Assembly: GCA_965242635.1 (NCBI GenBank)
Contig: OZ251471.1
Coordinates: forward strand, 1,736,737 to 1,800,736
Length of the DNA: 64,000 nt
From: Bdellovibrionales bacterium
GTDB taxonomy: Bacteria; Bdellovibrionota; Bdellovibrionia; Bdellovibrionales; UBA1609
Direction: 5' to 3'
Shown here: positions 4,537 through 64,000 of the stretch, piece by piece
Numbering within the stretch: position 1 is the stretch's first letter
How the letters are laid out: each line of letters starts with the position of its first letter
Program-made: the position numbers and the translations under genes
The notes under the pieces: model-generated
Seen by the model: only the letters and a program-made list of their open reading frames with translations
The model's database searches: none
What the model was told of the DNA's origin: nothing

Positions 4537-6518
4537 TTAATCTATCGAAAGAACAAAGAAAAATTGTGGAACAAGACTTAAATAAATCCATTCAGGTTCT
4601 GGCTTCTGCCGGCACCGGGAAGACTCGTGTTTTAACTGAAAGGGTCCGGTATATCCTGAATCATACCAAAAAATCAGGAATTATAGCTCTAACTTTTACC
4701 AATAAATCAGCAGAAGAGATGAAAAAGCGACTGGAAACATCAGATTCAGCAGTGGATCGTTGCTGGATAGCCACCATTCACTCTGTAGCCCAGAGGATTG
4801 TGGAACAGTATGGGCATACTATTGGCCTCCCTTCCGATTTGAATATATATGATCGGGATCAGGATCGAAAAACTATTCTTTTACAATCAATTGCTAACAA
4901 TGGCTTTTCTGTGGAAAATTTAATGCAAAATAACAGTAGCTTTGATAACAAAAAAAACAGAACCCAAACAATACAAAAGTATATGGAGCAATTTTCCCAA
5001 ATAAAAAGGAATTTAATGACACATACAGAAATTAAAAAAAAATATGGAGATGGTTTTTTGCATATTTTTAAAAATTATCATGAAGAGTTAAAAAACAGTG
5101 GAGGTATTGATTTTGATGATATCTTAGTATATGCTCATAGAATCCTAATAGAGCAACCTAACTGTGCAAGAATATATGGCATAAAATACCGGTATATTTT
5201 TGTAGATGAAGCCCAAGATTTAAATAAAGCACAATATGAGCTGATTAAAGCTTTCAGTGGCTATAAAATTCAAATTGCGATGATGGCAGGAGATCCAGAT
5301 CAAATGATCTACGGCTTTAACGGTTCTTCAAAAAAGTATTTATGCCAAACTTTTATCCAAGATTTTGATCCTCTTACATTTAAGTTGAAAAAAAATTATA
5401 GAAGCTCAAAAACAGTTGTTCGCCTGGCTAATAGGTTAAAACCTGCTTCTCAATTGGAATCTGATTTTGCTCTTGATGGCAAGTATAAGATTCAAGATTT
5501 CGATAATGAAAGGTTAGAAGCAGAGTGGATTGTAAAAGAAATCAAATCCATTTTATTAAATACCAAGCATTCTGATATTGAAGGCCCTGTTTCATTAAAT
5601 AATATCGTGGTTATAGCACGTACTCGCTTTGTATTCCAGGAATTGGAAAAGGTATTAAAGAAAGCTAAAATAAATTATTCTTTTAAAAAATCCAAACCTT
5701 TATTGGAACCTGCATCTCATATTGGTAAAATTCTGGATTTATCTATTCGTCTTAAACTTAATCCAAGAGACTGGATAAGTGGTAAAAAATTATATGAGTT
5801 GTTGAAGATAAATTTCCCAGATATATGGCCCAATGAATCTGGTTTGGTTATCTTAATTAAGCACCTTGGTGCAACCTCTATTCCATTTGTAGATTTGATA
5901 AAAACCACTTTAAAAAGCATAGAAAGTCTTGATGTTGAAAACCCAAATATGTTAAAATTATTTAACAAGATAAATGACAATATCCAAAAAGAAGTCAATC
6001 TACTGAAAAATAATCATTTTGCAACAAAAAGTACAACAGGAAAAAAATGTGAATCATTATTACAAGAATTGGAAAATTTTAAAAAAGAGTTGGATGAGTT
6101 TAAAAAATACTGGAGGCTTTTCAGGCTAAAAAATTCAGAAGCTTCTTTGATGGCCTTTAAAAATTCTCTGGCTTTGGGAGAGCTTATTTCAATAGACCCA
6201 GTATCCATAAATGAACCAGTGTTAACATTAAGCACAGTGCATACCATGAAAGGATTGGAAAAGGACATTGTGTTTTTAATGGGTATGTGTGAAGGAGTTT
6301 TTCCTGACTATAGAGCCAGAAGTCCACATGAAAAAGAAGAGGAAAAAAATAATGCTTTTGTGGCTGTAACCCGTAGCAGGCGATGGATTTATATCACTTA
6401 TCCCAAAAATCGTAAAATGCCTTGGGGGGATATAAAACAGCAACAAGAATCCCGGTTTGTAACTGCCATGAGAAATAGCACCTCATTGAATAATATAGAA
6501 TTTAGAAAATCTGTTTAA
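4533..6518 (+). CDS. gajB: UvrD/PcrA-like superfamily-1 helicase, GajB-like
   Basis: SF1 motifs ASAGTGKTRVL (I), IFVDEAQDLN (II), GDPDQMIYGFNGS (III), NYRSS (IV), TVHTMKGLEKDIVFL (V) and FVAVTRSRRWIYITY (VI). Translationally coupled to the OLD nuclease. Confidence 0.8.
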   Translation: MINLSKEQRKIVEQDLNKSIQVLASAGTGKTRVLTERVRYILNHTKKSGIIALTFTNKSAEEMKKRLETSDSAVDRCWIATIHSVAQRIVEQYGHTIGLPSDLNIYDRDQDRKTILLQSIANNGFSVENLMQNNSSFDNKKNRTQTIQKYMEQFSQIKRNLMTHTEIKKKYGDGFLHIFKNYHEELKNSGGIDFDDILVYAHRILIEQPNCARIYGIKYRYIFVDEAQDLNKAQYELIKAFSGYKIQIAMMAGDPDQMIYGFNGSSKKYLCQTFIQDFDPLTFKLKKNYRSSKTVVRLANRLKPASQLESDFALDGKYKIQDFDNERLEAEWIVKEIKSILLNTKHSDIEGPVSLNNIVVIARTRFVFQELEKVLKKAKINYSFKKSKPLLEPASHIGKILDLSIRLKLNPRDWISGKKLYELLKINFPDIWPNESGLVILIKHLGATSIPFVDLIKTTLKSIESLDVENPNMLKLFNKINDNIQKEVNLLKNNHFATKSTTGKKCESLLQELENFKKELDEFKKYWRLFRLKNSEASLMAFKNSLALGELISIDPVSINEPVLTLSTVHTMKGLEKDIVFLMGMCEGVFPDYRARSPHEKEEEKNNAFVAVTRSRRWIYITYPKNRKMPWGDIKQQQESRFVTAMRNSTSLNNIEFRKSV

Positions 6519-13346: not shown

Positions 13347-14243
13347 AAAAATCTTTGGACACAAGTGCTTAAGAAGTTCTTTTTTTTGGCTCTGCCCTTA
13401 CGTGGTCCAAGTTATGACCTCATTAATATCTCCGGAGGAGTTAACACCCACTATCAGTGACTGTGACTGTTGATGGAAGGTTATTACAGGCCGTAATCTG
13501 GGAACAATCAGCGGCACATTCTGGAAGTGTGAGGCTGGTAAGACTGCTCAATCCATCAAAAACATTGTGATGAAACAGGCCTTTGTTTGAAAGTGGTTAG
13601 ATGTTTTCTGCCATAAAGGAAGAACTCAGAGGCAATAACCAGGATCGCCAGTAACTGTTAAGTTATCACCAGAGCGAGTCAGGGTGCAAGAGGTCCCTCC
13701 ACCGGTGCAACTGTAAGCAGAGCCACCGAGATAGGTGGTTATATCACTATCAATAAACAGGCCACTTTGGGGGCAATAAAGAAAAACGCTATTACTATTT
13801 ACTTCTGATAACTGAATCGTAGTCAGTGTTTGACCGGTATTGGGGAGGGATTTTAACAGAGCTTTAAGATTGGCTGGGGAAATACAGGTTTCATCCAAAT
13901 CCAGGTTTGTTAAAGCCGTTAAATCAGACAAAAGCTGATTGGCTGAAGCAATAGTGCTTAGGGAATGTGTTACCAAATCAAGCCTTGTGATCCCGGAAAG
14001 CCCTTTAAAATCATTGGCTGTTACAGGACTACTGGATTTACCAAGATTACCTGCACAAGGATTAGTTTCCTGTGGAATTTCGAGTGTGTCGGTGAGGTTA
14101 GACAAGTCCCCATTGGTTACAGTGGAGCAGGTTCGAGCAGTGGCACGACCACTGTTGACTTTCGCCAAAATAGCCGTTTGCACAAGAGTATTTCTATCGC
14201 AAAAACCTGTTACTTGATCAGAGGGGGATAAAGTGCCACCATC

Positions 14244-33246: not shown

Positions 33247-33276
33247 AAGACAAACTTGCGACTTGGATTCTTGTAT

Positions 33277-33305
33277 TTGACAGCACTCTACTTTGCGGTT
33301 ATAGT
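33277..33305 (+). promoter_or_regulatory. Near-consensus sigma70 promoter (TTGACA, 17 nt, TATAGT) that would give a leaderless or very short-leader SIR2 mRNA
   Basis: ttgacagcactctactttgcggttatagt. The -10 element ends 10 nt before the ATG at 33316 and there is no SD between them. Confidence 0.55.
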
Positions 33306-33315
33306 GTTACACCTT

Positions 33316-36300
33316 ATGATTTACATCCCAAACGGCCCTGATATACCTGAAAAAGTTGAACAAGATCTCAGCAATGACAACTTGGTATTTTTTTGTGGAG
33401 CTGGCATTTCTTTTCAAAATGGCTTGCCCTTGTTCAAGGGCTTGGTGGAGCGAGTTTGCCAAAAGCTTGGTATCGATAGAGAGAAAGAGCCTCTTTTGGA
33501 AAAGGCTCATAAAAAAGAAAACTATGCCAGAATGCTGGATTTGATCGAAGGCAATCAATCTTTCTCAGTCACCAAAGAGAAGTTAAGAAAAAAAGTTATT
33601 GAAATTTTAAATCAATACAAAGGCAAGCCTGATATTCATAAAGCCCTTTTGGATCTGTCTGCCTCGCCGGGTAACAAGGGCCATCGATTGGTCACCACTA
33701 ATTTTGACAGGTTGTTTTTTAAAGCTGGTCTTAATAATGATCATGCTTTTTTTGATTCAGTCCCCAAATTAGTAGCCCTACCCAGAAAAGACACATGGCA
33801 ACATCTGACCTTCTTGCATGGTGTGATTGATGAAGAACATGATCCAGAAGGCAAGCATCTAATTCTCACTGGAAGCGATGTTGGCTTGGCTTATTTGCAT
33901 GATAATTGGGCCAGTCGTTTTATTATTCAGCTTTTTCAGGATTGGACAGTGCTGTTCATCGGATGTAGTGTAAACGATCCTGTAATGCAATATCTTTTTT
34001 TAGCTATTCATGAAAATCAAAAAAGAAGGCAAAATAGCAAAAAACAGACTGAAGCACATATCAATCACACAACAGATGAAAGTACAATTTATGCTTTTGT
34101 TGGATATAAAGATGGACAAAAAGAGTCAGCTAAAGATGAGTGGAGAGGTTTGGGTGTGAAACCTATCCTCTATAAAATTACAGGCAACAAAGACAATGAG
34201 AATCATTCACTGTTATACAATACTATCAAAAAGTGGGCTTGTTCAAAGCAAATAGGTTTACCCGGCAAAAAAGTCCAACTTGAAGAGCAATTAAGATTAC
34301 TCTATAAAGAAAAAGAGCGGGCTACTAAATCAAAAAGAACAAGATTATCTGACAGAAAAGTCCAACTTAAAGAGCAATTAAGATCACCTTATAAAAAAGA
34401 AACAGATAAAGAAAAAGCAAATAATGTTATTTCCTCTTTAAACATAGATGATAAATTGGCAAGATATTTTTCACAAATAGATTTTGCACCCGATCCAACA
34501 GAGAATAACAAATCATCTCCCAACAAACCAGTGGACATCAGCTGGTTAAGTGCTTTTGATAATTCTGAAAAGAGAGCAAACAAAATAAAATTTGCCCCTG
34601 CAAAAGAGAAAGAGGCTAAAAGCAGTACACTGGAAAAGTTAACAAAAAAAACCTCCCAAACAAATCCACCTCTATGGGAACCTTTATCACCATTGGAGGG
34701 GCATATAGCCCTTTGGCTCTGTAACCACTTGGATAAAAAAGAATTAGTCCACTGGGTCATAGATAAAGGTTGTATATTGCATCCAGGGTTTAAAAGCATG
34801 ATTCGATACACAATAGATAAAAGACCAATTGAAGGTATTCAAAAAACCGTTTTGAAAAAGAATATACAGCTTTTTTGGGAAACTGTTATTGACAATAATT
34901 ATTTAAAAAGTAGGTATTACTATGATACTGTATATGGTATAATAGAGGATCTGAATCGACAATACTCTCCGTTTAAAGCCAAGATTTTATTGGAATTATT
35001 GGAGCCTTACATCCATTTTCATACAGATTGGCTTTCAGATTCAGAATCGGATTTTACAAAAGAAGTTCGTAAACCTGAAATAAAAATCAATATAGACCAT
35101 TATCCCAGCATTCAGCTTAAAAATGAAAAAGTGCTTTCACATCATGCAGAAGATTTTTCGGATTTACTGAAAAAAGCAATGGAACTGGCCGAAAAGATTG
35201 AAATTATTAAAAATGGAGAAGATCATTTCTATATTATCAGGCCTTCTATTGAAGAGCAAAATATAACATATCATACTTGGATTTATCTCATTGATTTGAC
35301 AAGAGACAGTTTTGATATGGCTGTAAAGAAAGATAGACAGTTGGCTAATCTTTTGTTACAAAAATGGCAATATTATTCTTACTCTCTTTTTCATCGTCTT
35401 ATTCTTTATGCTGTGACCAAATACCCTGAATTGGATCAAAAAATAGCTCTTGATCTTTTAAGTAATGAACAACACCATGTTTTATGGTCCATATCCTGTC
35501 AAAATGAAGTCTTTAAATACTTAAAATCTGAAAAGTATTCTCACACTCAACAAAAAGCATTGTTGGATTTAATCATGAAAGGGCCACCCAACAGTTTATT
35601 CATGGATAATATTGATGATAAAATTATTACAGAATACAAAGAAAAAGATATCTATAAGAGGTTGAGTTGCTTAAAAGTGTCTGGCATATCCTTTCCTCAA
35701 GAAGTGGAAAAATATTATCATGAAATTCAATCCAAGTATTCCCTTCAAAACAAGGAAATACATGATTTTCCTTATTTCCATACTGGGTGGAGACCAAGAG
35801 ATATGAGACAGCAAAGATATAATCAATTAAGCTCTGAACAAATATACGATGATCTCAAAAAACCAATCCACCCTTTGGAACAAGAAGAAAAAAAGCAGGC
35901 TTTTCAATATTTAACTGAAGACCAGGTAGATAAAGCTTTTGAAGTGCTCTTAAAATTTTCAGATTCAGAGCATATTAGTGCTTCATATTGGGGAGCTTTT
36001 TGTAATGGTCTTTCCTCAGCAACAGATCAAAACAAAGCAAATGAATATTTTATAAAATCCATCAAAAAAATTGAAGGTTTTAATGATGAATTTATCACTG
36101 AATGTCTGTGGCCTTTGGTAGAATCTTTTGGATACAAAGGAGGACTGTTATACTATAAAGTAGACAAAGATTTTTTCAAAAGATGGTGGAAAAAATTATG
36201 GGATTTAAGTGTTAAAAAAGAACAAAAGCACCTGTCCAAAGAATCTTCCAATGTGAACATGAGGGCACATAACTCACTGTTGGGCAAATTAACAAATTCC

Positions 36301-37272
36301 ATAATTCAGTTTTTATGGAGTCATTTTGATGAAAAAACAATTCTAAAAAATGGCCAGATACCAGATGGTGTAAGGGAGTATTTAAGTATTATTATAACAC
36401 AGGGAGCAAAAACAAATCCAGCCGTTATGTTTCATTTTGGAACATATTTATTCACTCTTTGGTTTTTGGACAAAGAATGGACAAAAAAACATATAAAACC
36501 TTTAATGAATTTTGACAAACATAAAAATATATGCAAATCTCTATGGACAGGATATTTCTATCATGTAGAAGTCAATCCTGATTTTTTGTCTTATTTTAAA
36601 AAAGAATTATTACAAATGTTTTTAAATAGTCAGTATTTATATGCAAAAGAATCAGAAGACACACACAAATCAAATGTATTGGAATCTGTCACAGAGCTGT
36701 TTCTTATTGCAACTGGTGGCAAGTGGTTTGAAAACATTTTTACAAATGATGAAACACAGAATCTAAAACAAAAATTTATCTTGAATACAGATATTTTGGA
36801 ATCCTTATCCAGACAAATATGGGTTCTTTTAAAAGATTCTAAAGAAAAATCTGGCATTTTATGGGATGAAAAAATAAAACCTTGGATTGAGCAATTTTGG
36901 CCAGCTCAGAAAAACATGAAAACTCTTGGAATAGCTCAAGATTTATCTTGTGCTTTATTGTATTGTGGGGATAAATTTCCGGAAGCTCTTGGAGTATTAG
37001 GAGAACATATCAAAGGAGTTATGGCCAAAAATCACTATGAAATTTTATTTTTAATAAATGGAGACATGGGTGACGATAAAAAAAGATTTGACTCTACTTT
37101 TGACTACCCTCATGATTTTCTAAACCTTTTAAACTGGAATTTTCCACAAGATGAAACCATATACAGTCATTATAGTGAAATGTTGCAAGAAATATTAAAC
37201 AAAATAAAAAATAAACATCCGGGCATAGAAGAAGATGAAAAATACATCGATCTCGAAGAAAAACTGTCTTGA
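33316..37272 (+). CDS. Large SIR2-domain fusion protein (~1318 aa), DSR1-like defence-associated sirtuin
   Basis: The N-terminal ~300 aa carry VFFCGAGISFQNGLP, VTTNFDRLF and TFLHGVI (SIR2 NAD-binding and catalytic motifs). About 1000 aa of unrecognised, helix-rich sequence follow. The ATG at 33316 is preferred over the track's TTG at 33256. Confidence 0.8.
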   Translation: MIYIPNGPDIPEKVEQDLSNDNLVFFCGAGISFQNGLPLFKGLVERVCQKLGIDREKEPLLEKAHKKENYARMLDLIEGNQSFSVTKEKLRKKVIEILNQYKGKPDIHKALLDLSASPGNKGHRLVTTNFDRLFFKAGLNNDHAFFDSVPKLVALPRKDTWQHLTFLHGVIDEEHDPEGKHLILTGSDVGLAYLHDNWASRFIIQLFQDWTVLFIGCSVNDPVMQYLFLAIHENQKRRQNSKKQTEAHINHTTDESTIYAFVGYKDGQKESAKDEWRGLGVKPILYKITGNKDNENHSLLYNTIKKWACSKQIGLPGKKVQLEEQLRLLYKEKERATKSKRTRLSDRKVQLKEQLRSPYKKETDKEKANNVISSLNIDDKLARYFSQIDFAPDPTENNKSSPNKPVDISWLSAFDNSEKRANKIKFAPAKEKEAKSSTLEKLTKKTSQTNPPLWEPLSPLEGHIALWLCNHLDKKELVHWVIDKGCILHPGFKSMIRYTIDKRPIEGIQKTVLKKNIQLFWETVIDNNYLKSRYYYDTVYGIIEDLNRQYSPFKAKILLELLEPYIHFHTDWLSDSESDFTKEVRKPEIKINIDHYPSIQLKNEKVLSHHAEDFSDLLKKAMELAEKIEIIKNGEDHFYIIRPSIEEQNITYHTWIYLIDLTRDSFDMAVKKDRQLANLLLQKWQYYSYSLFHRLILYAVTKYPELDQKIALDLLSNEQHHVLWSISCQNEVFKYLKSEKYSHTQQKALLDLIMKGPPNSLFMDNIDDKIITEYKEKDIYKRLSCLKVSGISFPQEVEKYYHEIQSKYSLQNKEIHDFPYFHTGWRPRDMRQQRYNQLSSEQIYDDLKKPIHPLEQEEKKQAFQYLTEDQVDKAFEVLLKFSDSEHISASYWGAFCNGLSSATDQNKANEYFIKSIKKIEGFNDEFITECLWPLVESFGYKGGLLYYKVDKDFFKRWWKKLWDLSVKKEQKHLSKESSNVNMRAHNSLLGKLTNSIIQFLWSHFDEKTILKNGQIPDGVREYLSIIITQGAKTNPAVMFHFGTYLFTLWFLDKEWTKKHIKPLMNFDKHKNICKSLWTGYFYHVEVNPDFLSYFKKELLQMFLNSQYLYAKESEDTHKSNVLESVTELFLIATGGKWFENIFTNDETQNLKQKFILNTDILESLSRQIWVLLKDSKEKSGILWDEKIKPWIEQFWPAQKNMKTLGIAQDLSCALLYCGDKFPEALGVLGEHIKGVMAKNHYEILFLINGDMGDDKKRFDSTFDYPHDFLNLLNWNFPQDETIYSHYSEMLQEILNKIKNKHPGIEEDEKYIDLEEKLS

Positions 37273-37368
37273 ACCAAACTGGTTTGAGGCAAATTTTGCC
37301 TTCTGAAAAAGGTGCCACTTGGAAGTTTTTTCCTATAAAGAAAATTGAGATCCAAAAATTTCATGCCC
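37272..37368 (-). repeat. Reverse-oriented copy of the MITE-like element, between the convergent SIR2 and GmrSD genes
   Basis: aaccaaactggttt[gaggcaaattttgccttc]tgaaaaaggtgccacttggaagttttttcc... aligns with the reverse complement of 10795-10880 and has a small hairpin insertion. Confidence 0.7.
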
Positions 37369-37477
37369 TTGCTCCCGATCGGAGGTCAAACCAGTATAAA
37401 ATCTAAACCCCTATTTTTTTATAGACAGGCGGTGAATCGGTCCTGAAAGTCGGACAGTTTACCTGGAATAAGTTTGT

Positions 37478-57771: not shown

Positions 57772-57891
57772 GTTTGAAAATTTACAGCTCAAGTTTCTCT
57801 TATCAGAAAAGAAAAACTCACGAGCGGCACCTTTTTCAAAAGGCAGACCCCTCGGGGCAGGTTCTGCCTGCCCCGTGCCAGTTTGGTTTAA
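57769..57891 (+). repeat. MITE-like element, long form with a GC-rich hairpin insert
   Basis: catgtttgaaaat...ggcacctttttcaaaa[ggcagacccctcggggcaggttctgcctgccccgtgc]cagtttggtttaa. Confidence 0.85.
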
Positions 57892-58030
57892 AAGTTTTTG
57901 GCCTGATCGCAGGCATTTAAGTTTGAAGTTCATTATCATCTCCTTTGTTTGACCTTGTTACACACAAGGTTCATTTGTTCCAATATGTTCTGTTCTTGAC
58001 CTAATATAATAAAGTCAACTTAAGTATACT

Positions 58031-58153
58031 CTTGTTTGAAAATGCCTGTTTCACATTTGCCTTGTGGGAGGAAAACAGCCCAAAAGTAGCACCCTTTTCA
58101 AAAGGCAGACCCCTCGGGGCAGGTTTTGCCTGCCCCGTGCCAGTTTGGTTTAA
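58031..58153 (+). repeat. MITE-like element, long form, second tandemly placed copy
   Basis: cttgtttgaaaat...gcacccttttcaaaa[ggcagacccctcggggcaggttttgcctgccccgtgc]cagtttggtttaa. Confidence 0.85.
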
Positions 58154-58485
58154 CATTTATTGTTCTGTTCAGGACAAACTATATGATACCTACACAAAAG
58201 TCTACAAAAAAATAATAAAAATTCTCTAAAAAGACAAAAAATCGTGTAAATTTTACACCTTTTTACACTGTTTAACTTGAAAATTCTGGCAGAGGTACTA
58301 AAAATAACCAGCAAACCACCAAAAACAGAGCATTTTCATGCTATATAGTGTCATTTTAACAGCTTTCAGCTCCTTATCAACAAAAACATCAAAAAACCCA
58401 CTATACGGGTTTGACAGGCTGTTTTGTGTCCAACCCATCTTAAGTGGGTAGGGGTGGATTTGGTCGTTGATGAGGTTTTTTGTTT

Positions 58486-59628
58486 TCAGACTGTCAGAAA
58501 GTTTTGGCGAAACAAAGAAAAGGGCCAAATTTCAATGCCGTCCTTTTGAAGGTGCAAGTGGCCTGAATACACCAAGATTCTTTGTTTCACTCCCTTGAGA
58601 TCGGCTATCGCTTTAAGCCCTTTTAAATCCTCTGGCCGAACTCTTTTGGCTGTTTTAACTTCTATGGCTGTCAATTCAGATCCTTTTTGTAGAAGAAAAT
58701 CAACCTCCACATTTTTCGCCGTGCCGGAGGACCAATAGTATATGTCATCAAAAGCCCCTTCATATTCCATCTTCATCTTGAGACACATATAAATATAAGA
58801 TTCAAAAAGAGAGCCTTTCTCCATTTCAGAAACAGGCCCGGTGTGTTTTCGGGCAGAGCGAACAATACCACAATCGATCCAGTAGATTTTGGGATGCTTT
58901 TTCTCACGCACCCTGAGTTTTGGTGAATAAGCTGGTAATTTGTTCAGCAGTAAAGTGTCTTCCATAATATCCAAAAAGCCATTCACAGTGGAGCGGGACA
59001 CCCCTGCGTCCCGGGCTGTGGCAGACACATTCAGAACTTGCCCATTATAAAGAGCCAACACAGGGAGGAAACGGGAAAAACCAGGTAAATTCCTGACCAA
59101 AGCTTCTGCTTTTATCTCTTCCTTGAGATACATTTGCACATAAGAATTAAGTGCCTTTTGTTTTTCTTTTTGATTTTGGATCAAGGGCATGGTCCCAAAG
59201 CGAAGGGCTTGGTTGAGATTAAAATCAGCAGACAACTCTTTGGCTGTAAAAGGGTACATAAAATATCGATCGGCCCGCCCGGCCAACAAGTTTACTCCAG
59301 AGGCTCTGAGCTTTCGGGCACTGGAACCAGTTAAAGCAAATTGCAATTTCTGGCCCTCTATCAGCCGGTGCACTTCATTCAAAAGGTTGGGTAGCCGTTG
59401 AATTTCATCCACCACAACCCATGTCTGGGGTTTGAGCTGTTTCAGGCTATGGTAAAACAGGGAAATGTCCTGCAAATAGCTTTGGTAAAGGGCTTCATCC
59501 AGGAGGTTAATCACCTTGGCTTTTTTGAAGTGCTGGCCAAGCCAGGTGCTTTTGCCTGTTCCTCTTGGCCCCAACAGGAAAAAAGACCGCTTGGGCACTT
59601 TTAAAGATCTTGCATACATTGAGGTCAT
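58486..59628 (-). CDS. COG1373-type ATPase (AAA plus DUF4143-like), paralogue of 19890-21050
   Basis: Walker A GPRGTGKST, VVVDEIQRLPNLLNEVHRL, and a C-terminal VEVDFLL...AIEVK motif. Confidence 0.8.
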   Translation of the reverse strand: MTSMYARSLKVPKRSFFLLGPRGTGKSTWLGQHFKKAKVINLLDEALYQSYLQDISLFYHSLKQLKPQTWVVVDEIQRLPNLLNEVHRLIEGQKLQFALTGSSARKLRASGVNLLAGRADRYFMYPFTAKELSADFNLNQALRFGTMPLIQNQKEKQKALNSYVQMYLKEEIKAEALVRNLPGFSRFLPVLALYNGQVLNVSATARDAGVSRSTVNGFLDIMEDTLLLNKLPAYSPKLRVREKKHPKIYWIDCGIVRSARKHTGPVSEMEKGSLFESYIYMCLKMKMEYEGAFDDIYYWSSGTAKNVEVDFLLQKGSELTAIEVKTAKRVRPEDLKGLKAIADLKGVKQRILVYSGHLHLQKDGIEIWPFSLFRQNFLTV

Positions 59629-59631
59629 TTT

Positions 59632-59707
59632 GCACGACTTTTTGACGACAAGCAAGTCATTTTTGAAATCCCTGACTTTGGGGCAGGTGCCAGTGGTTGT
59701 CTGAGGT
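59632..59707 (+). repeat. ~75-bp direct repeat, copy 2
   Basis: See 56026-56100. It begins 4 nt upstream of the ATPase start codon. Confidence 0.85.
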
Positions 59708-59812
59708 GGCCCTGAAGGCTTTTGAAGGGCTTTTGAAGGCTTTTGAGGGCTTTTTTCAAGCTCAACAAAAAATCAGTAAATTATCCCCCTTATGTAAAAT
59801 TTACACCCTTAT

Positions 59813-59920
59813 ACTGATTTCCAGTTTTATAGGCTAATTCCTGAATGGTCACTTTGGAGTGATTCGCTATAAAACAGAGGATTGTCTCCCCAGTTTTCTG
59901 TATTATTTCATACCTCTTTA
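59813..59920 (-). pseudogene. Orphan ~110-bp duplicate of the 3' part of the 60010-61440 gene, lacking the 12-bp tandem repeats
   Basis: actgatttccagttttataggctaattcctgaatggtcactttggagtgattcgctataaaacagaggattgtctcc-cagttttctgtattatttcatacctcttt matches 60127-60310 minus six repeat units. Confidence 0.75.
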
Positions 59921-60009
59921 AGGTATCTTGCAAAAACCAGTTATAAACACTCCCAATAAGCAAGTTAGAGGTTCATTTTTCAGCAAAGATATGTGATCTG
60001 AGCCTTTAT

Positions 60010-61440
60010 TTATGGATCCTTTTTTGGCTTTTTTATTATTTGCCAATGACCGCCTTTAGCCGGGCCTATTCGTTTTAAGTCACCTGTTTTTTTTAGTTCC
60101 TGTAATTGCCATTCAATCCCTTTGATACTGATTCCAGTTTTATAGGCTAATTCCTGAATGGTCACTTTGGAGTGATTCGCTATAAAACAGAGGATTGTCT
60201 CCCTAGTTTTCTCCCTAGTTTTCTCCCTAGTTTTCTCCCTAGTTTTCTCCCTAGTTTTCTCCCTAGTTTTCTCCCTAGTTTTCTGTATTATTTCATACCT
60301 CTTTTTTGGAGAAGATATCTTGCTTTTTATATCCGATTCATGGTTTTTGAATTCCACACAAATATCTGTTTTATAGCCCCATATCTTAGGCCCTGATGTG
60401 CCATGTGCCTTACAGTCTTCCTGCATTTTTCTAATTCCTCGTCCCCATGTTTCAATCATATTGGCTAAAAAGAAGATCTTGGCTATGTCTGGATTATGGG
60501 GCCGGGATTGGTGTTTTGATTTCATATTTTTGACTGTCCAGCCTTCAGGCAAACGGCAGGTATTCCAAAACATAATTTTATGGTCATAAACACGAATTTG
60601 AATAGGACCTCCCGTGCTATAATCTCTATGGATCACAGCATTTAATAGGGCTTCCCTCAAAGCACTTTCAGGCACTGGATATCGCTCCATTCTATATAAT
60701 CCTTTATAGGAAATAAAAGCTTTTAAGTATTTGGTTAAAAGTAATTCCATTGTTTTTTCGATTTGACTGAACAAATCACCATGTATTTCATCATGGTAAC
60801 GCACTTCTGTTTCTGTTTGAAAGTAACCAATTTTAATATAAGCCCCTGTGACATACATTTCCGGATCAGGGTGGAACAGCAAAACAGCTGATCTTTTAAG
60901 GGCTCTGCCTTCTGTTAATTTCAGCTGTTTTTCCATAAGAGTTTTATTGGTTTCTTTCATCACTTTAACCGGCAATCTTTTGCTTTCCACAGCTTTTTCT
61001 TTAAATTCAGAAATAATTTTGGAGTCAAGAGAGGATAAAGAAGAGTTTAGCACAGACACTCCATCCCAGGTCTGGCCTGTTTTATTCAACAGGAAGTGAT
61101 GAAGGGCAGGGCCTCTTAATTCTTGATTTGTGCTACCACTTCTATAGTAAAAATTTCCTTTATAATTGATAGGGTGTTTATAGGGTTTGATTTTTACTAC
61201 GATGAGGCTTTTTCTCTGTTTTTTTATATGATCTATTTCAGGGATGATGCCTAAAATATCTCTGACTTTGTTTGGCAGGTCTTCCAACAGTTTTGTGGCT
61301 TTGGTGACTCCAATAATTCTGCCTTTGTCATCTCGTCCAATTTCCAACACTCCACCTTGGGCGTTGGCAAAGCCACAAATCCACTTAAGGTACTCGTCCC
61401 GCCAGGATTCTTTCCATTCTGTATATTTATCTTCACTCAT
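60010..61440 (-). CDS. COG2865-type protein: AlbA_2/Schlafen-like N-terminal domain, HATPase_c_4-like middle and C-terminal wHTH
   Basis: The N-terminal ...EWKESWRDEYLKWICGFANAQGGVLEIGRDDKGRIIGV is the typical AlbA_2 (divergent AAA/Schlafen-like) opening. Middle: REALLNAVIHRDY. C-terminal HTH: VTIQELAYKTGISIKGIEWQLQELKKTG. Confidence 0.75.
   Translation of the reverse strand: MSEDKYTEWKESWRDEYLKWICGFANAQGGVLEIGRDDKGRIIGVTKATKLLEDLPNKVRDILGIIPEIDHIKKQRKSLIVVKIKPYKHPINYKGNFYYRSGSTNQELRGPALHHFLLNKTGQTWDGVSVLNSSLSSLDSKIISEFKEKAVESKRLPVKVMKETNKTLMEKQLKLTEGRALKRSAVLLFHPDPEMYVTGAYIKIGYFQTETEVRYHDEIHGDLFSQIEKTMELLLTKYLKAFISYKGLYRMERYPVPESALREALLNAVIHRDYSTGGPIQIRVYDHKIMFWNTCRLPEGWTVKNMKSKHQSRPHNPDIAKIFFLANMIETWGRGIRKMQEDCKAHGTSGPKIWGYKTDICVEFKNHESDIKSKISSPKKRYEIIQKTREKTREKTREKTREKTREKTREKTRETILCFIANHSKVTIQELAYKTGISIKGIEWQLQELKKTGDLKRIGPAKGGHWQIIKKPKKDP
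60199..60282. repeat. Perfect 12-bp tandem repeat (ctccctagtttt) x7, encoding (KTRE)7 in the linker before the C-terminal HTH
   Basis: Seven identical units, in-frame. Confidence 0.9.
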
Positions 61441-61444
61441 GGTG

Positions 61445-62254
61445 TCATCTCTTGTGTTTATTATTTGGTTTTTTGTTGTATCCTGGTGTTAATTTTAAAT
61501 CAGCTATTTGAGAAACTTCTTTAATATTTTCTAAAATATATTGGTACTGTTTTCCTCTTAAGATGAAATTCGGTGAACAATCAATATTCCAAAGTTGAAG
61601 AAAGTATCCTGCCATAGCAGATCGAATTTTAATATTGGAATTGATATTATGAAAATTTGATGCATTAGTTGGGTGTGACTTTATTTTTAAATTAATAAAT
61701 GAATGCCACTGTTTATCTTTATTTGGATGTTCATGATTTTTTATGACATCTTTTTTAATGGGCATAACCTTTAGAATTCTTCTCAGAACAAAGTCAGTAA
61801 ATTGGTTTCTTTTTCTATCGTATGCACGTAAATGCCATCTAAGATGAGTGCTGGCAAAGGCCACAGGGACAATTTGTCTGGTACTTATCTTACCGGATAG
61901 AGAAGAATAAGTAATAGTCAGAGCATATACTCGTTGGATAGCTCTTGATATTATGGCAACCTGAGCAATATCATTACTGTCAATCGAGTTATATAAGGAA
62001 GGAATGGTATATACAGGCATAAGTTCATATAAAATATGATTGTTAAAAATTGGTGTGAAAGACTTACTGATTTCATACCTCTTAAGATTTATATTATAAT
62101 CAAGATTTTTGGGAGCTTCTTTATTATATTGGGATAGTATATTTGTGGCAGATGCTGGAGAAATATTAAATTTATTTATAATATTTTCTCTATTTACAGT
62201 GCCATAGAAATAAGCAAAAAACTCAATAAATTCCATTATATTTTTATTTTTCAT
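61445..62254 (-). CDS. wHTH plus WYL-domain regulator (BrxR/CapW-like)
   Basis: The N-terminal FYGTVNRENIINKFNISPASATNILSQYNKEAPKNLDYNINLKRYEIS is HTH-like. Central ITYSSLSGKISTRQIVPVAFASTHLRWHLRAYDRKRNQFTDFVLRRI is a WYL-type motif with RWH in place of WYL. The start overlaps the upstream stop (ATGA). Confidence 0.6.
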   Translation of the reverse strand: MKNKNIMEFIEFFAYFYGTVNRENIINKFNISPASATNILSQYNKEAPKNLDYNINLKRYEISKSFTPIFNNHILYELMPVYTIPSLYNSIDSNDIAQVAIISRAIQRVYALTITYSSLSGKISTRQIVPVAFASTHLRWHLRAYDRKRNQFTDFVLRRILKVMPIKKDVIKNHEHPNKDKQWHSFINLKIKSHPTNASNFHNINSNIKIRSAMAGYFLQLWNIDCSPNFILRGKQYQYILENIKEVSQIADLKLTPGYNKKPNNKHKR

Positions 62255-62808
62255 TTGTTACCTTTTTTTATATCCATCAAAGACATTTCATCAATTTGTT
62301 TGGATTTTAATATATATATTTTAAATTTCCTTTTATATTTTAAGAATTTATTATTTGGAATTTGTTCTGTATTATCCATACAATTATTGTATTTTTCTTG
62401 CATATTTTGCATTTTCTCATCTGCTACATTGGTTTCGTACTGATGAAGTAGTTTTTCCAGAAAATCTGCTTTTCTTAACCAATTTCCCCAAATAGCTACA
62501 GCCACTTCATGCCTTGAAATTTTACAAGTCCAATGAAATATTGTATGATCCAAAGTTTGTAATATCGTGATCAATAGAGGTAATATCCAAATTAAAATAA
62601 GTATATAATCACCTGCTAATACTTTTCTATAATAAAGGTTAATCAATGCAACAATTATCACAGATGATAAAAGAATTATACATTCTTTTATATTTCTTAA
62701 TGCAGTGTATTTTGTCTTTAACTCTGAGTGAGAGTAACGGCATAATTCAGCTTTGCCTCTCAATTTTTTGAGAATTTTTTGATTTGATTGAAAAGTATTA
62801 TTTTGCAT
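62251..62808 (-). CDS. Two-TM protein, SLATT-like effector candidate
   Basis: A ~40-aa helical N-terminus, then two adjacent TM helices (CIILLSSVIIVALINLYY and YILILIWILPLLITILQTL), then a soluble helical C-terminal part with conserved Trp residues. Confidence 0.5.
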   Translation of the reverse strand: MQNNTFQSNQKILKKLRGKAELCRYSHSELKTKYTALRNIKECIILLSSVIIVALINLYYRKVLAGDYILILIWILPLLITILQTLDHTIFHWTCKISRHEVAVAIWGNWLRKADFLEKLLHQYETNVADEKMQNMQEKYNNCMDNTEQIPNNKFLKYKRKFKIYILKSKQIDEMSLMDIKKGNK

Positions 62809-62811
62809 TTG

Positions 62812-63702
62812 TCAAATAACCTTTGGGCTTGGTTTAACAACAGAAACAGTACTTTTTAAAATATCAAATGTTAATTCTTTATCTGGAAAAACTCGAGCAA
62901 GAGCTTCTGGGAAAAATCGTAGACGAAAATCTGAAAATGTATAACTATTATCTCCATGGTATCCATCGACTGAAGTCATAGATGCCAATTCATCTAAATT
63001 GTCCTTTGTTAAGGGTATCCCCTGAAGATCATGTTTTAATAACTCCAAGCATTGTTTTTTGTCAGGTCGTGAAAACTCTATATGTAATGTGGCTCTTCGT
63101 ATGATTGCATGATCTATAACACTTGCTCTATTTGTGCATAAAAATACAACAGCTCGTCCTCCAGCTTGACGAATTTCATCAATCTTTTGTATTAGTGTAT
63201 TTACAGCTGATTTTTCTTCTTGGTGCATCTGTTCAGTGGATCGAAGTGAAGCAACAGAATCCGCCTCATCTATTAATAAAAAAGCAAAACGATTTTTACC
63301 AGCCTGTGTTTTTAAATTTTTAAAAGCATCTTGAATTAGTTGATTCATTTCTCCATGTAATCCTTTGCCTCTTACCCGTGTACTTAATTTCAATAAAAAC
63401 CCATTTTTTTTCATATCTTTTGTTAACTTGTTTGCTGAACATTCAGCTGTGATAGTTTTTCCTGTGCCAACATCTCCACTAAAAAGGAACAGTGGGTACC
63501 TATGCTGAATGATATTACATAATGGAATAATTTGTTGATAATGTATTTTACTCCATTCATTTACACTGTCAGGTGCCAACATTATCATTAAATGTTTTTT
63601 TAAACCCATGTAATGATTATCAAAACCAATTAGTGTTTTGGCAATATTTTCCAGTTTAGGAGATGGAAGTTCTATTTGAATATCAAAAATATCAGGCGAC
63701 AT
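62812..63702 (-). CDS. Classical-clade AAA+ ATPase (single module, ~296 aa)
   Basis: Walker A GDVGTGKT, Walker B FLLIDEADS, sensor-1 FLCTNR and arginine-finger region HAIIRR. Confidence 0.8.
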   Translation of the reverse strand: MSPDIFDIQIELPSPKLENIAKTLIGFDNHYMGLKKHLMIMLAPDSVNEWSKIHYQQIIPLCNIIQHRYPLFLFSGDVGTGKTITAECSANKLTKDMKKNGFLLKLSTRVRGKGLHGEMNQLIQDAFKNLKTQAGKNRFAFLLIDEADSVASLRSTEQMHQEEKSAVNTLIQKIDEIRQAGGRAVVFLCTNRASVIDHAIIRRATLHIEFSRPDKKQCLELLKHDLQGIPLTKDNLDELASMTSVDGYHGDNSYTFSDFRLRFFPEALARVFPDKELTFDILKSTVSVVKPSPKVI

Positions 63703-63712
63703 TATTGACCTC

Positions 63713-64000
63713 CTATAGACTCACAAAAGTTTCTCTTTGTAAGCCATAACTGTTGCTGACATAGGTTCTATGGCTTTCATGTTGCATTCCATAGTAATTA
63801 GTTGATGAAGATGAGGGCCCCCAATTTATTTTGAAATTTTGATTTTGAAATATTCTTTCCTCTTCTTGAATACTGGAAAATTCAACAATTATATGTAGTC
63901 TGCCATTAGGGAGCTTTGGCCATCTGTTTGCCCCAGGTCTTTGGGAATTTGATAGTGAGTGTTCTCTTACAGAATATCTATGCACTTTTATCCGATTTCC
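63713..64000 (-). CDS. 3' part of an ORF that continues beyond the right edge of the window (function unknown)
   Basis: The frame stays open from 64000 down to the stop at 63713. The track 'M' at 63985 is an internal GTG. 10-nt gap to the AAA+ gene. Confidence 0.5.
   Translation of the reverse strand, partial: GNRIKVHRYSVREHSLSNSQRPGANRWPKLPNGRLHIIVEFSSIQEEERIFQNQNFKINWGPSSSSTNYYGMQHESHRTYVSNSYGLQRETFVSL

What the first reader, a model, noticed from the sequence alone, without database searches (positions are those of the whole stretch)
60010..64000. AT-rich five-gene cassette (partial ORF, AAA+ ATPase, 2TM SLATT-like, WYL regulator, AlbA_2/Schlafen-HATPase): candidate uncharacterised defence locus
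Five minus-strand ORFs are packed with gaps of about 10, 3, -4 (ATGA overlap) and 4 nt, so they are almost certainly one transcript. The block is visibly much more AT-rich than the housekeeping genes in this window (by eye, not computed), which suggests horizontal acquisition.

The parts match those of abortive-infection or signalling systems. There is a stand-alone classical AAA+ ATPase of TRIP13-like size. There is a two-TM protein with SLATT-like topology, which could act as a membrane-disrupting effector. There is a BrxR/CapW-type wHTH-WYL regulator. And there is a Schlafen/AlbA_2-HATPase-HTH protein.

I know of no named system with this composition. The first gene is cut by the window edge, so the sensor or synthase may lie outside. 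It is also possible that this is two adjacent units: X-AAA-2TM, followed by a WYL-regulated AlbA_2 gene.
Basis: partly seen in the sequence, partly recalled or inferred. Interest (0 to 1): 0.8.

Follow-up and report, generated by a model that had tools for sequence, protein, structure and literature searches.

The report
Type III CBASS with trailing WYL repressor
The AT-rich block is not an unknown defence system: it is the visible part of a known type III CBASS anti-phage operon (HORMA, TRIP13, membrane effector), unusual only in carrying its WYL repressor as the last gene, and it sits next to a separate Schlafen-type nuclease gene.

Summary
The five tightly packed minus-strand ORFs and the low GC are real: 33.3% GC against 43.8% for the rest of the window.

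The truncated first ORF is a bacterial HORMA protein. The "stand-alone AAA+" is a CBASS TRIP13 (PADLOC E 2e-101). The 2TM protein matches CBASS "2TM effector" models. The window ends before the cyclase gene. In an orthologous locus of a sister genome (84% nucleotide identity), and in every related locus with enough upstream sequence, a CdnC-like SMODS cyclase sits directly upstream.

The WYL protein is a full-length BrxR/CapW-family regulator and belongs to the CBASS unit, not to the AlbA_2 gene. It follows the effector gene in 21 related genome loci, and its divergence tracks that of TRIP13 (Mantel r 0.95). It also co-occurs perfectly with a dyad operator-like motif at the cyclase promoter. 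Cassettes without the WYL gene carry a divergent CapH/CapP-like pair instead. Published CapW genes lie upstream on the opposite strand, so the trailing position is a new variant.

The AlbA_2–HATPase_c_4–HTH gene is a prokaryotic Schlafen. It is linked to the cassette only in this lineage.

Interest is modest.

The parts
63713..64000 (-). 3' part of the HORMA gene (C-terminal 95 residues). The 5' part and the cyclase gene lie beyond the window edge.
   Evidence: Pfam bacHORMA_1 gives E 2.3e-13 and 50.8 bits (cut-off 35.6), aligned to profile positions 74-168 of 169. PADLOC HORMA gives E 3.4e-18. It is 64% identical to the C-terminus of the 161-aa HORMA of the orthologous locus L192.
62812..63702 (-). 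TRIP13/Pch2-like AAA+ ATPase of type III CBASS.
   Evidence: PADLOC TRIP13 gives E 2.4e-101 over residues 3-295. Full-length matches to the bacterial Trip13 structures 6PB3 and 6P8V give E 2e-41 and 1e-40. Walker A is GDVGTGKT at residue 76, Walker B is LLIDE, and sensor-1 is CTN.
62251..62808 (-). Two-transmembrane (SLATT-like) CBASS effector.
   Evidence: PADLOC CBASS 'Effector 2TM' models give E 2.3e-14 and 1.8e-12. NCBIfam SLATT_4 gives E 4.4e-6 and 26.6 bits, below its cut-off of 55. There are two hydrophobic helices at about residues 40-60 and 63-88. A homologue sits in the same position in 29 related loci.
61445..62254 (-). BrxR/CapW-family wHTH-WYL-WCX transcriptional regulator, encoded as the last gene of the CBASS operon. 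Its start overlaps the effector stop (ATGA).
   Evidence: Matches BrxR 7QFZ at E 3.8e-37 over residues 7-261, CapW 9C5G at E 1.4e-17, and 7TB5, 7T8K and 7TB6. Pfam WYL gives E 8e-10. The orthologue in L192 carries precomputed WHD_BrxR + WYL + BrxR_CTD. The gene is conserved directly after the 2TM gene in 21 genome loci.
60010..61440 (-). Adjacent, separate gene: a prokaryotic Schlafen (AlbA_2 nuclease domain) fused to a GHKL-type HATPase_c_4 and a C-terminal winged HTH. It lies 4 nt downstream of the WYL gene.
   Evidence: Pfam gives SLFN_AlbA_2 E 8e-16, HATPase_c_4 E 6e-16 and HTH_24 E 8.5e-5. The active-site motif E-x4-E-x-K is at residues 3-10. The architecture equals the pSlfn-HisKinase-HTH class of PMC13056530. 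It follows WYL only in the sister genome L192 and in none of 24 other WYL-bearing loci (21 genome loci; four metagenome loci; L192).
60198..60284 (.). Perfect 12-nt tandem repeat, 7.2 copies, in frame. It encodes (KTRE)7 in the linker between the GHKL domain and the wHTH of the Schlafen protein.
   Evidence: Tandem Repeats Finder reports 100% matches and score 174. The orthologue in L192 has a longer, different KTRE/KVTG array: 505 aa against 476 aa.
59819..59919 (-). Decayed partial duplicate of the 3' (wHTH-coding) part of the Schlafen gene. It carries a single repeat unit and lies just downstream of the gene's stop codon.
   Evidence: An 81-nt direct repeat, 59819-59899 against 60132-60212, is 99% identical, and the homology continues to 59919.

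Best explanation
Window 61445-64000 is the 3' four-fifths of a single-HORMA type III CBASS operon. The gene order is [CdnC-like cyclase, outside the window] - HORMA - TRIP13 - 2TM effector - WYL regulator.

The following steps are inferred from the characterised E. coli MS115-1 CdnC/HORMA/Trip13 system and from CapW. HORMA binds a phage-derived peptide and activates the cyclase. TRIP13 dismantles that complex to keep the system off. The cyclic oligonucleotide activates the SLATT-like 2TM protein, which permeabilises the membrane and aborts the infection.

The WYL protein is a BrxR/CapW-family dimeric repressor. Here it is encoded last in the operon, and its start codon overlaps the stop codon of the effector gene. 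I propose that it binds a dyad operator (core TCnTAA-N1-5-TTAnGA, within two 18-nt units) immediately downstream of the -10 of the cyclase promoter. It would then repress the whole operon, itself included (negative autoregulation), and release on a DNA-damage or ssDNA signal, as shown for CapW.

The AlbA_2-HATPase_c_4-wHTH gene 4 nt downstream is an independent single-gene Schlafen-type defence nuclease. It became attached to the cassette in this lineage and is probably transcribed by read-through.

The roughly 3.8-kb promoter-to-WYL unit is horizontally mobile across many phyla.
For: Shown directly:
- The HORMA, TRIP13 and 2TM-effector assignments.
- The WYL protein aligns over its full length to BrxR and CapW structures.
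- The orthologous locus L192 (84% nucleotide identity over window 64000-59992; the ProRS flank is 85%) has SMODS - bacHORMA_1 - AAA - 2TM - WYL - AlbA_2.
- The cyclase is present upstream of HORMA in every related locus with enough sequence. It matches E. coli CdnC 6P80 at E 1e-17.
- Annotated plasmid relatives show 'CBASS oligonucleotide cyclase' - hypothetical protein - ATP-binding protein - effector.

The WYL gene belongs to the unit:
- It lies directly after the 2TM gene (gaps -40 to +11 nt) in 21 genome loci and in four further metagenome loci.
- All 21 relatives with at least 48% identity in the genome collection are in that position. The next relatives (27-35% identity, 59 loci) are not CBASS-linked. 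About 47 of the 57 resolved have a same-strand gene next downstream and about 53 have an upstream gap of 50 nt or more, which is the classical leader layout.
- TRIP13 and WYL pairwise identities correlate (Mantel r 0.95; 0 of 5000 permutations reach it).

Operator:
- A leave-one-out PWM of the motif 55-59 nt upstream of the cyclase ATG is the top hit in the whole 20-kb locus in 14 WYL+ loci (also in L019, whose contig ends before the WYL position), and it scores below 0 in all seven loci with no WYL gene.
- The motif has an 18-nt periodicity (z 7.4) and dyad symmetry (z 6-8).
- The variable position of the dyad changes on both arms together: C/G in L192, A/T in L011 and L028, T/A in L007, L003 and L001.

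Regulator swap:
- All six WYL-less loci with full flanks carry a divergent HTH_3 + Peptidase_M78 (CapH/CapP-like) pair. No WYL+ locus does.

Horizontal transfer:
- The cassette is 10-19 GC points below its flanks in high-GC hosts.
Against: - The cyclase gene and the promoter/operator of this genome lie outside the window, and the contig could not be retrieved. Their presence here rests on orthology.
- No experiment links the motif to the WYL protein. The motif is AT-rich and overlaps the promoter, so part of its conservation may be promoter constraint. WYL+ and WYL- cassettes are also different sub-clades, so the co-occurrence is not phylogenetically independent.
- Several WYL+ loci (L009, L004, L016) show only a weak dyad.
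- The SLATT_4 match of the effector is below NCBIfam's cut-off, and no solved structure resembles it by sequence.
- How a 185-aa SLATT-only protein would sense a nucleotide is unknown.
- Relatives contain cassettes broken by IS elements or frameshifts (L001, L014, L193, L196), so activity of this copy is not guaranteed.
Confidence: 0.82

Rival explanations
1. The five genes form one novel, unnamed abortive-infection system in which the AAA+ ATPase, 2TM protein, WYL protein and Schlafen-HATPase work together.
For: The spacing is tight and all five genes are on the same strand. The block is conserved as a whole in the sister genome L192.
Against: Four of the five genes are canonical CBASS or CapW/BrxR components. 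The AlbA_2 gene is absent downstream of WYL in 24 other WYL-bearing loci, where the neighbour is variable: SIR2_2, AAA_21, NotI, a methylase, NUDIX, Bro-N, or genes on the other strand.
Confidence: 0.03
2. The WYL protein is a classical leader regulator of the BrxR type. It controls the gene downstream of it (here the Schlafen gene) and merely happens to sit behind a CBASS operon.
For: BrxR-family genes normally precede the defence genes they regulate (PMC9122601), and most of the distant relatives found here have a same-strand gene next downstream. The WYL stop is only 4 nt from the AlbA_2 start. About half of the related loci have a same-strand defence-type gene within about 215 nt downstream.
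Against: The downstream gene is never conserved, and in many loci it is on the opposite strand or absent. The WYL sub-family is found only behind this CBASS effector. It co-diverges with TRIP13. The only strong conserved motif lies at the cyclase promoter and disappears together with the WYL gene. No such motif occurs anywhere in the window, including the WYL/AlbA_2 junction; the best score is 7.2. Cassettes lacking WYL have CapH/CapP instead.
Confidence: 0.08
3. In this lineage the Schlafen-GHKL-wHTH protein is functionally integrated with the CBASS, as a second effector or sensor or as a co-regulated partner, rather than being a mere neighbour.
For: The gap is 4 nt in the window and 22 nt in L192, with no terminator, and the pair has been retained through about 16% nucleotide divergence. 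An unrelated copy (28% identity) of an AlbA_2-HATPase_c_4 gene overlaps the cyclase start by 4 nt in L029, which has neither WYL nor CapH/CapP.
Against: This is 2 lineages among about 35 loci. pSlfn-HisKinase(-HTH) genes are very common stand-alone defence genes in islands (PMC13056530). The two copies sit at opposite ends of the operon and are only distantly related. The neighbourhood is a variable defence hot spot.
Confidence: 0.12
4. The copy in this genome is an inactive relic, for example with a disrupted cyclase beyond the window edge.
For: Relatives include a cyclase split by an ISL3-like element (L001), an effector split by an IS3-like element (L014), a split SMODS (L196) and a split WYL (L193).
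Against: All four complete ORFs and the visible HORMA part are intact, with catalytic motifs preserved. The sister-genome cassette is intact from the cyclase to the Schlafen gene. Protein identities of 83-90% at 84% nucleotide identity indicate purifying selection.
Confidence: 0.08

Closest known systems
Type III CBASS with one HORMA (E. coli MS115-1 CdnC-HORMA-Trip13-NucC; PDB 6P80, 6P8V)
   Same: The gene order cyclase-HORMA-TRIP13-effector is the same. TRIP13 aligns over its full length (E 1e-40), the cyclase of the relatives matches CdnC (E 1e-17), and the HORMA belongs to the bacHORMA_1 family.
   Different: The effector is a 185-aa two-TM SLATT-like protein instead of the NucC endonuclease. 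An extra regulator gene is fused onto the 3' end of the operon. The nucleotide product is unknown.
CapW (CBASS-associated wHTH-WYL-WCX repressor; PMC9122588, PMC11662680) and BrxR (PMC9122601; PDB 7QFZ, 7T8K)
   Same: The three-domain architecture is the same, with full-length alignment (7QFZ E 4e-37; CapW 9C5G E 1e-17). It is associated with a type III CBASS. The predicted dyad site lies just downstream of the promoter -10, as for BrxR R-BOX1.
   Different: [quoted passage not shown] Here the gene is last in the operon, co-directional, and overlaps the effector gene. Sequence identity to the characterised members is only about 30%.
CapH/CapP (HTH + M78 peptidase) regulated CBASS
   Same: The same CBASS cassette (TRIP13 68-72% identical to the window's) occurs with a divergent HTH_3 + Peptidase_M78 pair in six related loci.
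   Different: The pair is not present in this window. Here the WYL gene takes that role, and the two regulators are mutually exclusive across the loci examined.
Prokaryotic Schlafen nucleases, pSlfn-HisKinase-HTH class (PMC13056530)
   Same: The architecture is AlbA_2 nuclease domain + GHKL-type ATPase domain + HTH. The E-x4-(E/D)-x-K motif is present, and the gene lies in a defence island.
   Different: It carries a recently expanded (KTRE)7 linker repeat. It lies 4 nt behind a CBASS operon. The paper tested HisKinase fusions from Enterobacterales, not this protein.

Membership tests
Type III CBASS | A CD-NTase (SMODS) cyclase gene in the operon of this genome. | not testable with these tools
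   The window ends inside the HORMA gene. The exact proteins are not on record, and 40- and 50-mers from the window end are absent from the genome and metagenome collections.
Type III CBASS | A CD-NTase immediately upstream of HORMA in orthologous and homologous loci. | tested here: met
   L192 (orthologous, 84% nucleotide identity) has a 316-aa SMODS protein ending at the HORMA start. Every related genome locus with enough upstream sequence has it. Pfam SMODS gives E 1.5e-12, and the match to CdnC 6P80 gives E 1e-17.
Type III CBASS | A bacterial HORMA-domain protein. | tested here: met
   Pfam bacHORMA_1 scores 50.8 bits against a cut-off of 35.6 on the 95 visible residues. PADLOC HORMA gives E 3e-18. 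No phmmer hit to PDB HORMA chains was found.
Type III CBASS | A TRIP13/Pch2-like AAA+ ATPase. | tested here: met
   PADLOC TRIP13 gives E 2.4e-101. PDB 6PB3 and 6P8V give E about 1e-40 over the full length. The Walker A, Walker B and sensor-1 motifs are present.
Type III CBASS | An effector gene in the operon. | tested here: met
   PADLOC CBASS 'Effector 2TM' gives E 2.3e-14. The protein has two TM helices and is conserved in position in 29 loci.
Type III CBASS | Cyclic-oligonucleotide-dependent abortive infection. | not testable with these tools
   This requires phage challenge and nucleotide detection.
CapW/BrxR wHTH-WYL-WCX regulators | The three-domain architecture wHTH + WYL + C-terminal extension. 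| tested here: met
   Residues 7-261 align to residues 18-294 of BrxR 7QFZ (E 3.8e-37), with further matches to CapW 9C5G, 7TB5 and 7TB6. The orthologue carries WHD_BrxR, WYL and BrxR_CTD.
CapW/BrxR wHTH-WYL-WCX regulators | The gene is upstream of the regulated operon: divergent for CapW, leader for BrxR. | tested here: not met
   The gene is the last, co-directional gene and overlaps the effector stop. Compare the statement in PMC9122588 and the layout of the distant relatives.
CapW/BrxR wHTH-WYL-WCX regulators | Binds an inverted-repeat operator at the promoter of the regulated system. | tested here: inconclusive
   A conserved dyad motif after the -10 of the cyclase promoter co-occurs with the WYL gene in relatives. 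Binding was not tested, and the promoter of this genome is outside the window.
CapW/BrxR wHTH-WYL-WCX regulators | Derepression on ssDNA binding to the WYL domain. | not testable with these tools
   This is known for CapW (PMC11662680). It is only inferred here.
SLATT 2TM effectors | A match to a curated SLATT model above its cut-off. | tested here: not met
   NCBIfam SLATT_4 scores 26.6 bits against a cut-off of 55 (E 4.4e-6, aligned 2-152 of 154). The topology fits, so the protein is 'SLATT-like', not a certified member.
Prokaryotic Schlafen (pSlfn-HisKinase-HTH) | An AlbA_2/Schlafen nuclease domain with the E-x4-(E/D)-x-K motif, plus GHKL ATPase and HTH domains. | tested here: met
   SLFN_AlbA_2 scores 59.1 bits (cut-off 25.3), HATPase_c_4 58.7 bits (cut-off 26) and HTH_24 22.5 bits (cut-off 21.9). 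The motif is EDKYTEWK at residues 3-10. The class definition is in PMC13056530.
Prokaryotic Schlafen (pSlfn-HisKinase-HTH) | Phage-triggered tRNA cleavage and defence. | not testable with these tools
   This was shown for other pSlfn proteins only.

The most novel reading that the evidence does not exclude
This is a distinct, promiscuously transferred sub-type of type III CBASS. In it, a BrxR/CapW-family WYL repressor has moved from the usual upstream position to the 3' end of the operon, with its start codon overlapping the stop codon of the toxic 2TM effector gene. From there it closes a negative-feedback loop on a dyad operator at the cyclase promoter. In this Bdellovibrionales-like lineage, read-through would additionally put a Schlafen-GHKL-wHTH nuclease under the same DNA-damage-responsive switch, so one sensor would gate two unrelated abortive-infection effectors.
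Probability: 0.4. Interest if true: 0.45.

Novelty: new variant of a known kind. Interest (0 to 1): 0.3.

Why it matters
The finding removes a false "new system" lead. What remains is a clean natural experiment in how toxic abortive-infection operons are kept in check.

The same CBASS core travels with either of two mutually exclusive regulators. One is a 3'-encoded, operon-internal WYL repressor. The other is a divergent CapH/CapP pair. This suggests that the regulator is an exchangeable safety module and that an operon-internal autorepressor is a viable design.

The perfect co-occurrence of the WYL gene with a dyad motif gives a directly testable operator prediction. The cassette's spread at 57-76% TRIP13 identity across Bdellovibrionales, Nitrospirales, Binatia, Latescibacterota, Arenicellales, Opitutales and others points to efficient transfer of a 3.8-kb unit that carries no mobility gene. 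Many of these genomes appear, from their isolate names only, to be sponge-associated.

None of this changes current understanding of how CBASS works.

Tried and rejected
- Extending the contig failed. Exact-protein look-ups for the TRIP13, WYL and AlbA_2 proteins found nothing. Exact 50-mer and 40-mer searches found nothing in genome contigs or metagenome contigs. I therefore used the closest relative (P0002, 90% identity) as a proxy.
- A single-protein scan for WYL relatives found only one locus. Repeating it with an alignment worked.
- Viral contigs holds no close TRIP13 relative, so there is no evidence that a phage carries the cassette. The plasmid collection's nearest TRIP13 is only 48% identical.
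- PDB sequence searches gave nothing for the HORMA or the 2TM protein. The only hit for the AlbA_2 protein was an uncharacterised chain, 3LMM.
- The operator PWM finds nothing in the window (best score 7.2). This is expected, because the promoter lies outside it, and it also argues against a second WYL site in front of AlbA_2.
- The promoter/terminator consensus scan of 59400-64000 was uninformative: 22 promoter-like sites against 17 expected.
- I did not run structure prediction.
- I considered a Panoptes-like (inhibitory signalling) reading of the 2TM effector and rejected it. Panoptes uses mCpol with an S-2TM-beta effector. This operon has the cyclase-HORMA-TRIP13 activation module and a helical SLATT-like effector.

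Full report
**Observation.** The ORF table confirms four complete minus-strand ORFs: 60010-61440, 61445-62254, 62251-62808 and 62812-63702. An open frame also runs from 63713 to the window edge. The gaps are 4, -4, 3 and 10 nt. The block has 33.3% GC against 43.8% for the rest of the window. The 2TM gene (26.2%) and the WYL gene (29.0%) are the lowest. The description is accurate.

**What the genes are.** Profile searches resolve the "partial ORF" and the "stand-alone AAA+".
- The 95 visible residues of the truncated ORF match Pfam bacHORMA_1 above its cut-off (50.8 against 35.6 bits) and PADLOC HORMA (E 3e-18).
- The 296-aa ATPase matches the PADLOC CBASS TRIP13 model at E 2.4e-101. It aligns over its full length to the bacterial Trip13 structures 6PB3 and 6P8V (E about 1e-40). 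Its Walker A, Walker B and sensor-1 motifs are intact.
- The 185-aa protein has two hydrophobic helices (residues about 40-60 and 63-88). It hits PADLOC "CBASS Effector 2TM" models (E 2e-14) and, below the cut-off, NCBIfam SLATT_4.
- The 269-aa protein aligns from residue 7 to 261 with BrxR from E. fergusonii (7QFZ, E 3.8e-37), and also with CapW (9C5G, 7TB5, 7TB6) and Acinetobacter BrxR (7T8K).
- The 476-aa protein has SLFN_AlbA_2, HATPase_c_4 and a C-terminal HTH.

**The missing 5' end.** The source contig could not be retrieved. A protein search with the TRIP13 found a 90%-identical relative on a 2.18-Mb ENA contig.
- That locus (L192) aligns to window 64000-59992 at 84% nucleotide identity. 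The ProRS-containing flank aligns again at 85%, so the locus is orthologous.
- L192 encodes SMODS cyclase (316 aa) - bacHORMA_1 (161 aa) - AAA (296 aa) - 2TM (186 aa) - WYL (266 aa; WHD_BrxR + WYL + BrxR_CTD) - AlbA_2/HATPase_c_4/HTH_24 (505 aa).
- Independently, 31 loci found in species-representative genomes through the TRIP13 (47-76% identity) carry the cyclase directly upstream of HORMA wherever there is enough sequence. That cyclase matches Pfam SMODS and E. coli MS115-1 CdnC (6P80, E 1e-17).
- Annotated plasmid relatives read [quoted passage not shown].

This is a single-HORMA type III CBASS with a 2TM effector.

**Which genes form the unit.** HORMA-TRIP13-2TM is conserved in 29 of the 31 loci.
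- A WYL gene follows the 2TM gene on the same strand in 21 genome loci (gaps -40 to +11 nt where both ORFs are intact) and in four further metagenome loci.
- Seen from the WYL side, an alignment-based scan returned the same 21 loci as the only relatives with at least 48% identity. The next relatives (27-35% identity, 59 loci) are never next to this CBASS. Of the 57 resolved, about 53 have an upstream gap of 50 nt or more and about 47 have a same-strand gene next downstream, which is the classical leader layout.
- Pairwise identities of TRIP13 and WYL across 21 cassettes correlate with Mantel r = 0.95, and 0 of 5000 permutations reach that value.
- The AlbA_2 gene follows WYL only in the window and in L192. 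Elsewhere the downstream neighbour is variable: SIR2_2, AAA_21, an SMC-like ATPase, NotI, a methylase, NUDIX, Bro-N, or genes on the other strand.

The unit is therefore cyclase-HORMA-TRIP13-2TM-WYL, and the Schlafen gene is a lineage-specific neighbour.

[quoted passage not shown] Here the regulator is the trailing gene.
- In WYL-bearing relatives, the 100 nt upstream of the cyclase are conserved across phyla. They contain TTGAyy, 17-18 nt, TAnnAT, and then roughly aGTCaTAAtaTTTAntATaGTCnTAAAaTTTAgTA.
- A leave-one-out weight matrix puts this site first among about 41,000 positions of the whole 20-kb locus in 14 WYL+ loci. It also ranks first in L019, whose contig ends before the WYL position. 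L022, L003 and L005 rank second, and in L027 and L028 the site lies just upstream of the true cyclase start. The matrix scores below zero in all seven loci with no WYL gene.
- The site has an 18-nt periodicity (z 7.4) and dyad symmetry (z 6-8).
- In the clearest cases the dyad is TCnTAA-N1-5-TTAnGA, and the n position changes on both arms together: C/G in L192, A/T in L011 and L028, T/A in L007, L003 and L001.
- Its position just after the -10 mirrors BrxR R-BOX1.
- All six WYL-less loci with full flanks instead carry a divergent HTH_3 + Peptidase_M78 pair, the CapH/CapP architecture. No WYL+ locus does.

I infer that the WYL dimer represses the cyclase promoter, and therefore its own synthesis. 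I infer that it is released by an ssDNA or DNA-damage signal, as shown for CapW (PMC11662680). This is a prediction. The co-occurrence is not phylogenetically independent, and the promoter of this genome is outside the window.

**Mechanism of the core.** The following is inferred from the E. coli CdnC/HORMA/Trip13 paradigm as summarised in PMC9122588. HORMA binding to a peptide activates the cyclase, and TRIP13 reverses this. The nucleotide activates the effector, which here is a small helical two-TM protein expected to damage the membrane. HORMA is consistently the most divergent component: 64% identity against 83-90% for the other genes in the window/L192 pair, and 35-61% against 57-76% for TRIP13 in the wider set. 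This fits a sensor under diversifying pressure, although dN/dS was not computed.

**The Schlafen gene.** Its architecture matches the pSlfn-HisKinase-HTH class, reported as 19.2% of 5,930 prokaryotic Schlafens. Other architectures of that family were shown to be phage-triggered tRNases (PMC13056530).
- The E-x4-(E/D)-x-K active-site motif is present at residues 3-10.
- With a 4-nt gap and no terminator, read-through from the CBASS operon is likely but untested.
- In L029, a distantly related AlbA_2-HATPase_c_4 gene overlaps the cyclase start by 4 nt. L029 is the one locus with neither WYL nor CapH/CapP. This is a hint of recurrent association, but it is too thin to build on.

**Horizontal transfer and host.** The cassette is 10-19 GC points below its flanks in Nitrospirales, Binatia, Arenicellales, Latescibacterota and other high-GC hosts. 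It is 57-76% identical (TRIP13) across those phyla. It sits in defence islands, for example inside a type I R-M locus in L194 and L195. The window's EF-G is closest to that of Bdellovibrionales MAGs (71%). Several cassettes are broken by IS elements or frameshifts.

**Verdict.** This is a known system (type III CBASS) with a known class of regulator in a previously unreported position, next to a known class of single-gene defence nuclease. It is a new variant of a known kind, of modest interest.

Noticed in passing
window 60198-60284; L192 about 13400-13600: A perfect 12-nt x 7.2 in-frame tandem repeat encodes (KTRE)7 in the linker between the GHKL domain and the wHTH of the Schlafen protein. 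The sister genome has a longer, different KTRE/KVTG array (505 aa against 476 aa). The linker length therefore varies rapidly between close relatives.
   Followed up: partly
window 59819-59919: A decayed partial copy (81 nt at 99% identity, with a single repeat unit) of the Schlafen gene's wHTH-coding 3' part lies just downstream of the gene. It looks like a scar of a tandem duplication or an allele replacement.
   Followed up: partly
window 56026-56098 and 59632-59704; also 57789-57908 / 58051-58170: A 73-nt direct repeat (96% identity) brackets the 3.6-kb segment that holds a 612-aa ORF with no family match and a DUF4143/AAA_14 ATPase (PADLOC candidate PDC-S01). This segment is replaced by HaeII R-M genes in the sister genome. 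A second 120-nt repeat pair (79% identity) encodes the recurring peptide LNQTGTGQA.PAPRGLPFEKGA.
   Followed up: partly
window 2746-6518: A Gabija system occupies another AT-rich island: GajA at 2746-4536 (PADLOC E 1e-209) and GajB at 4533-6518 (E 3e-239).
   Followed up: partly
window 33256-39622: An AT-rich island holds a Dsr1 defence sirtuin (33256-37272; NCBIfam Dsr1 E 2e-154). It also holds a GmrSD-like type IV restriction enzyme split into two ORFs: 39125-39622 (GmrSD_N) and 37478-39061 (GmrSD_C + DUF5655).
   Followed up: partly
window 43671-45368 and 47524-48924: A bacterial topoisomerase VI subunit B gene and an ankyrin-repeat protein are present. Together with the MAG names of the related loci (SB06xx, STY4, RHO2, bin75/bin131), this suggests a sponge-associated Bdellovibrionales-like host. 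The sponge link is my reading of the isolate names and is not verified.
   Followed up: no
L001 7336-8625; L014 11228-12366: IS elements interrupt the cassette in relatives. An ISL3-like transposase splits the cyclase in L001, and an IS3-like orfA/orfB pair splits the 2TM effector right after its second TM helix in L014. Frameshifted SMODS (L196) and WYL (L193) also occur. This is consistent with a fitness cost of the system.
   Followed up: partly
L003 and L005 (both on OZ241967.1): One Bdellovibrionales MAG carries two copies of the whole cassette, about 0.8 Mb apart. Each is followed by the same SMC-like ATPase gene of about 864 aa, which in L003 is interrupted by an IS200-like transposase gene.
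   Followed up: no
L029 6608-7918: In a Pseudohongiellaceae MAG, a 436-aa AlbA_2 + HATPase_c_4 gene overlaps the cyclase start codon by 4 nt. That locus has neither a WYL gene nor CapH/CapP. This is a possible third regulator or partner option for the same CBASS core.
   Followed up: partly
L192 3446-5842: Upstream of the orthologous cassette in the sister genome lie a ThiF/E1-like gene and two small ORFs on the opposite strand, then an N6/N4 methylase. This is possibly another defence module and shows what may lie beyond window position 64000.
   Followed up: no
window 63713-64000 vs L192 9703-9990: The HORMA C-terminal half is only 64% identical between the two sister genomes, while the four neighbouring proteins are 83-90% identical. 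HORMA is also the most divergent component across all related loci.
   Followed up: partly
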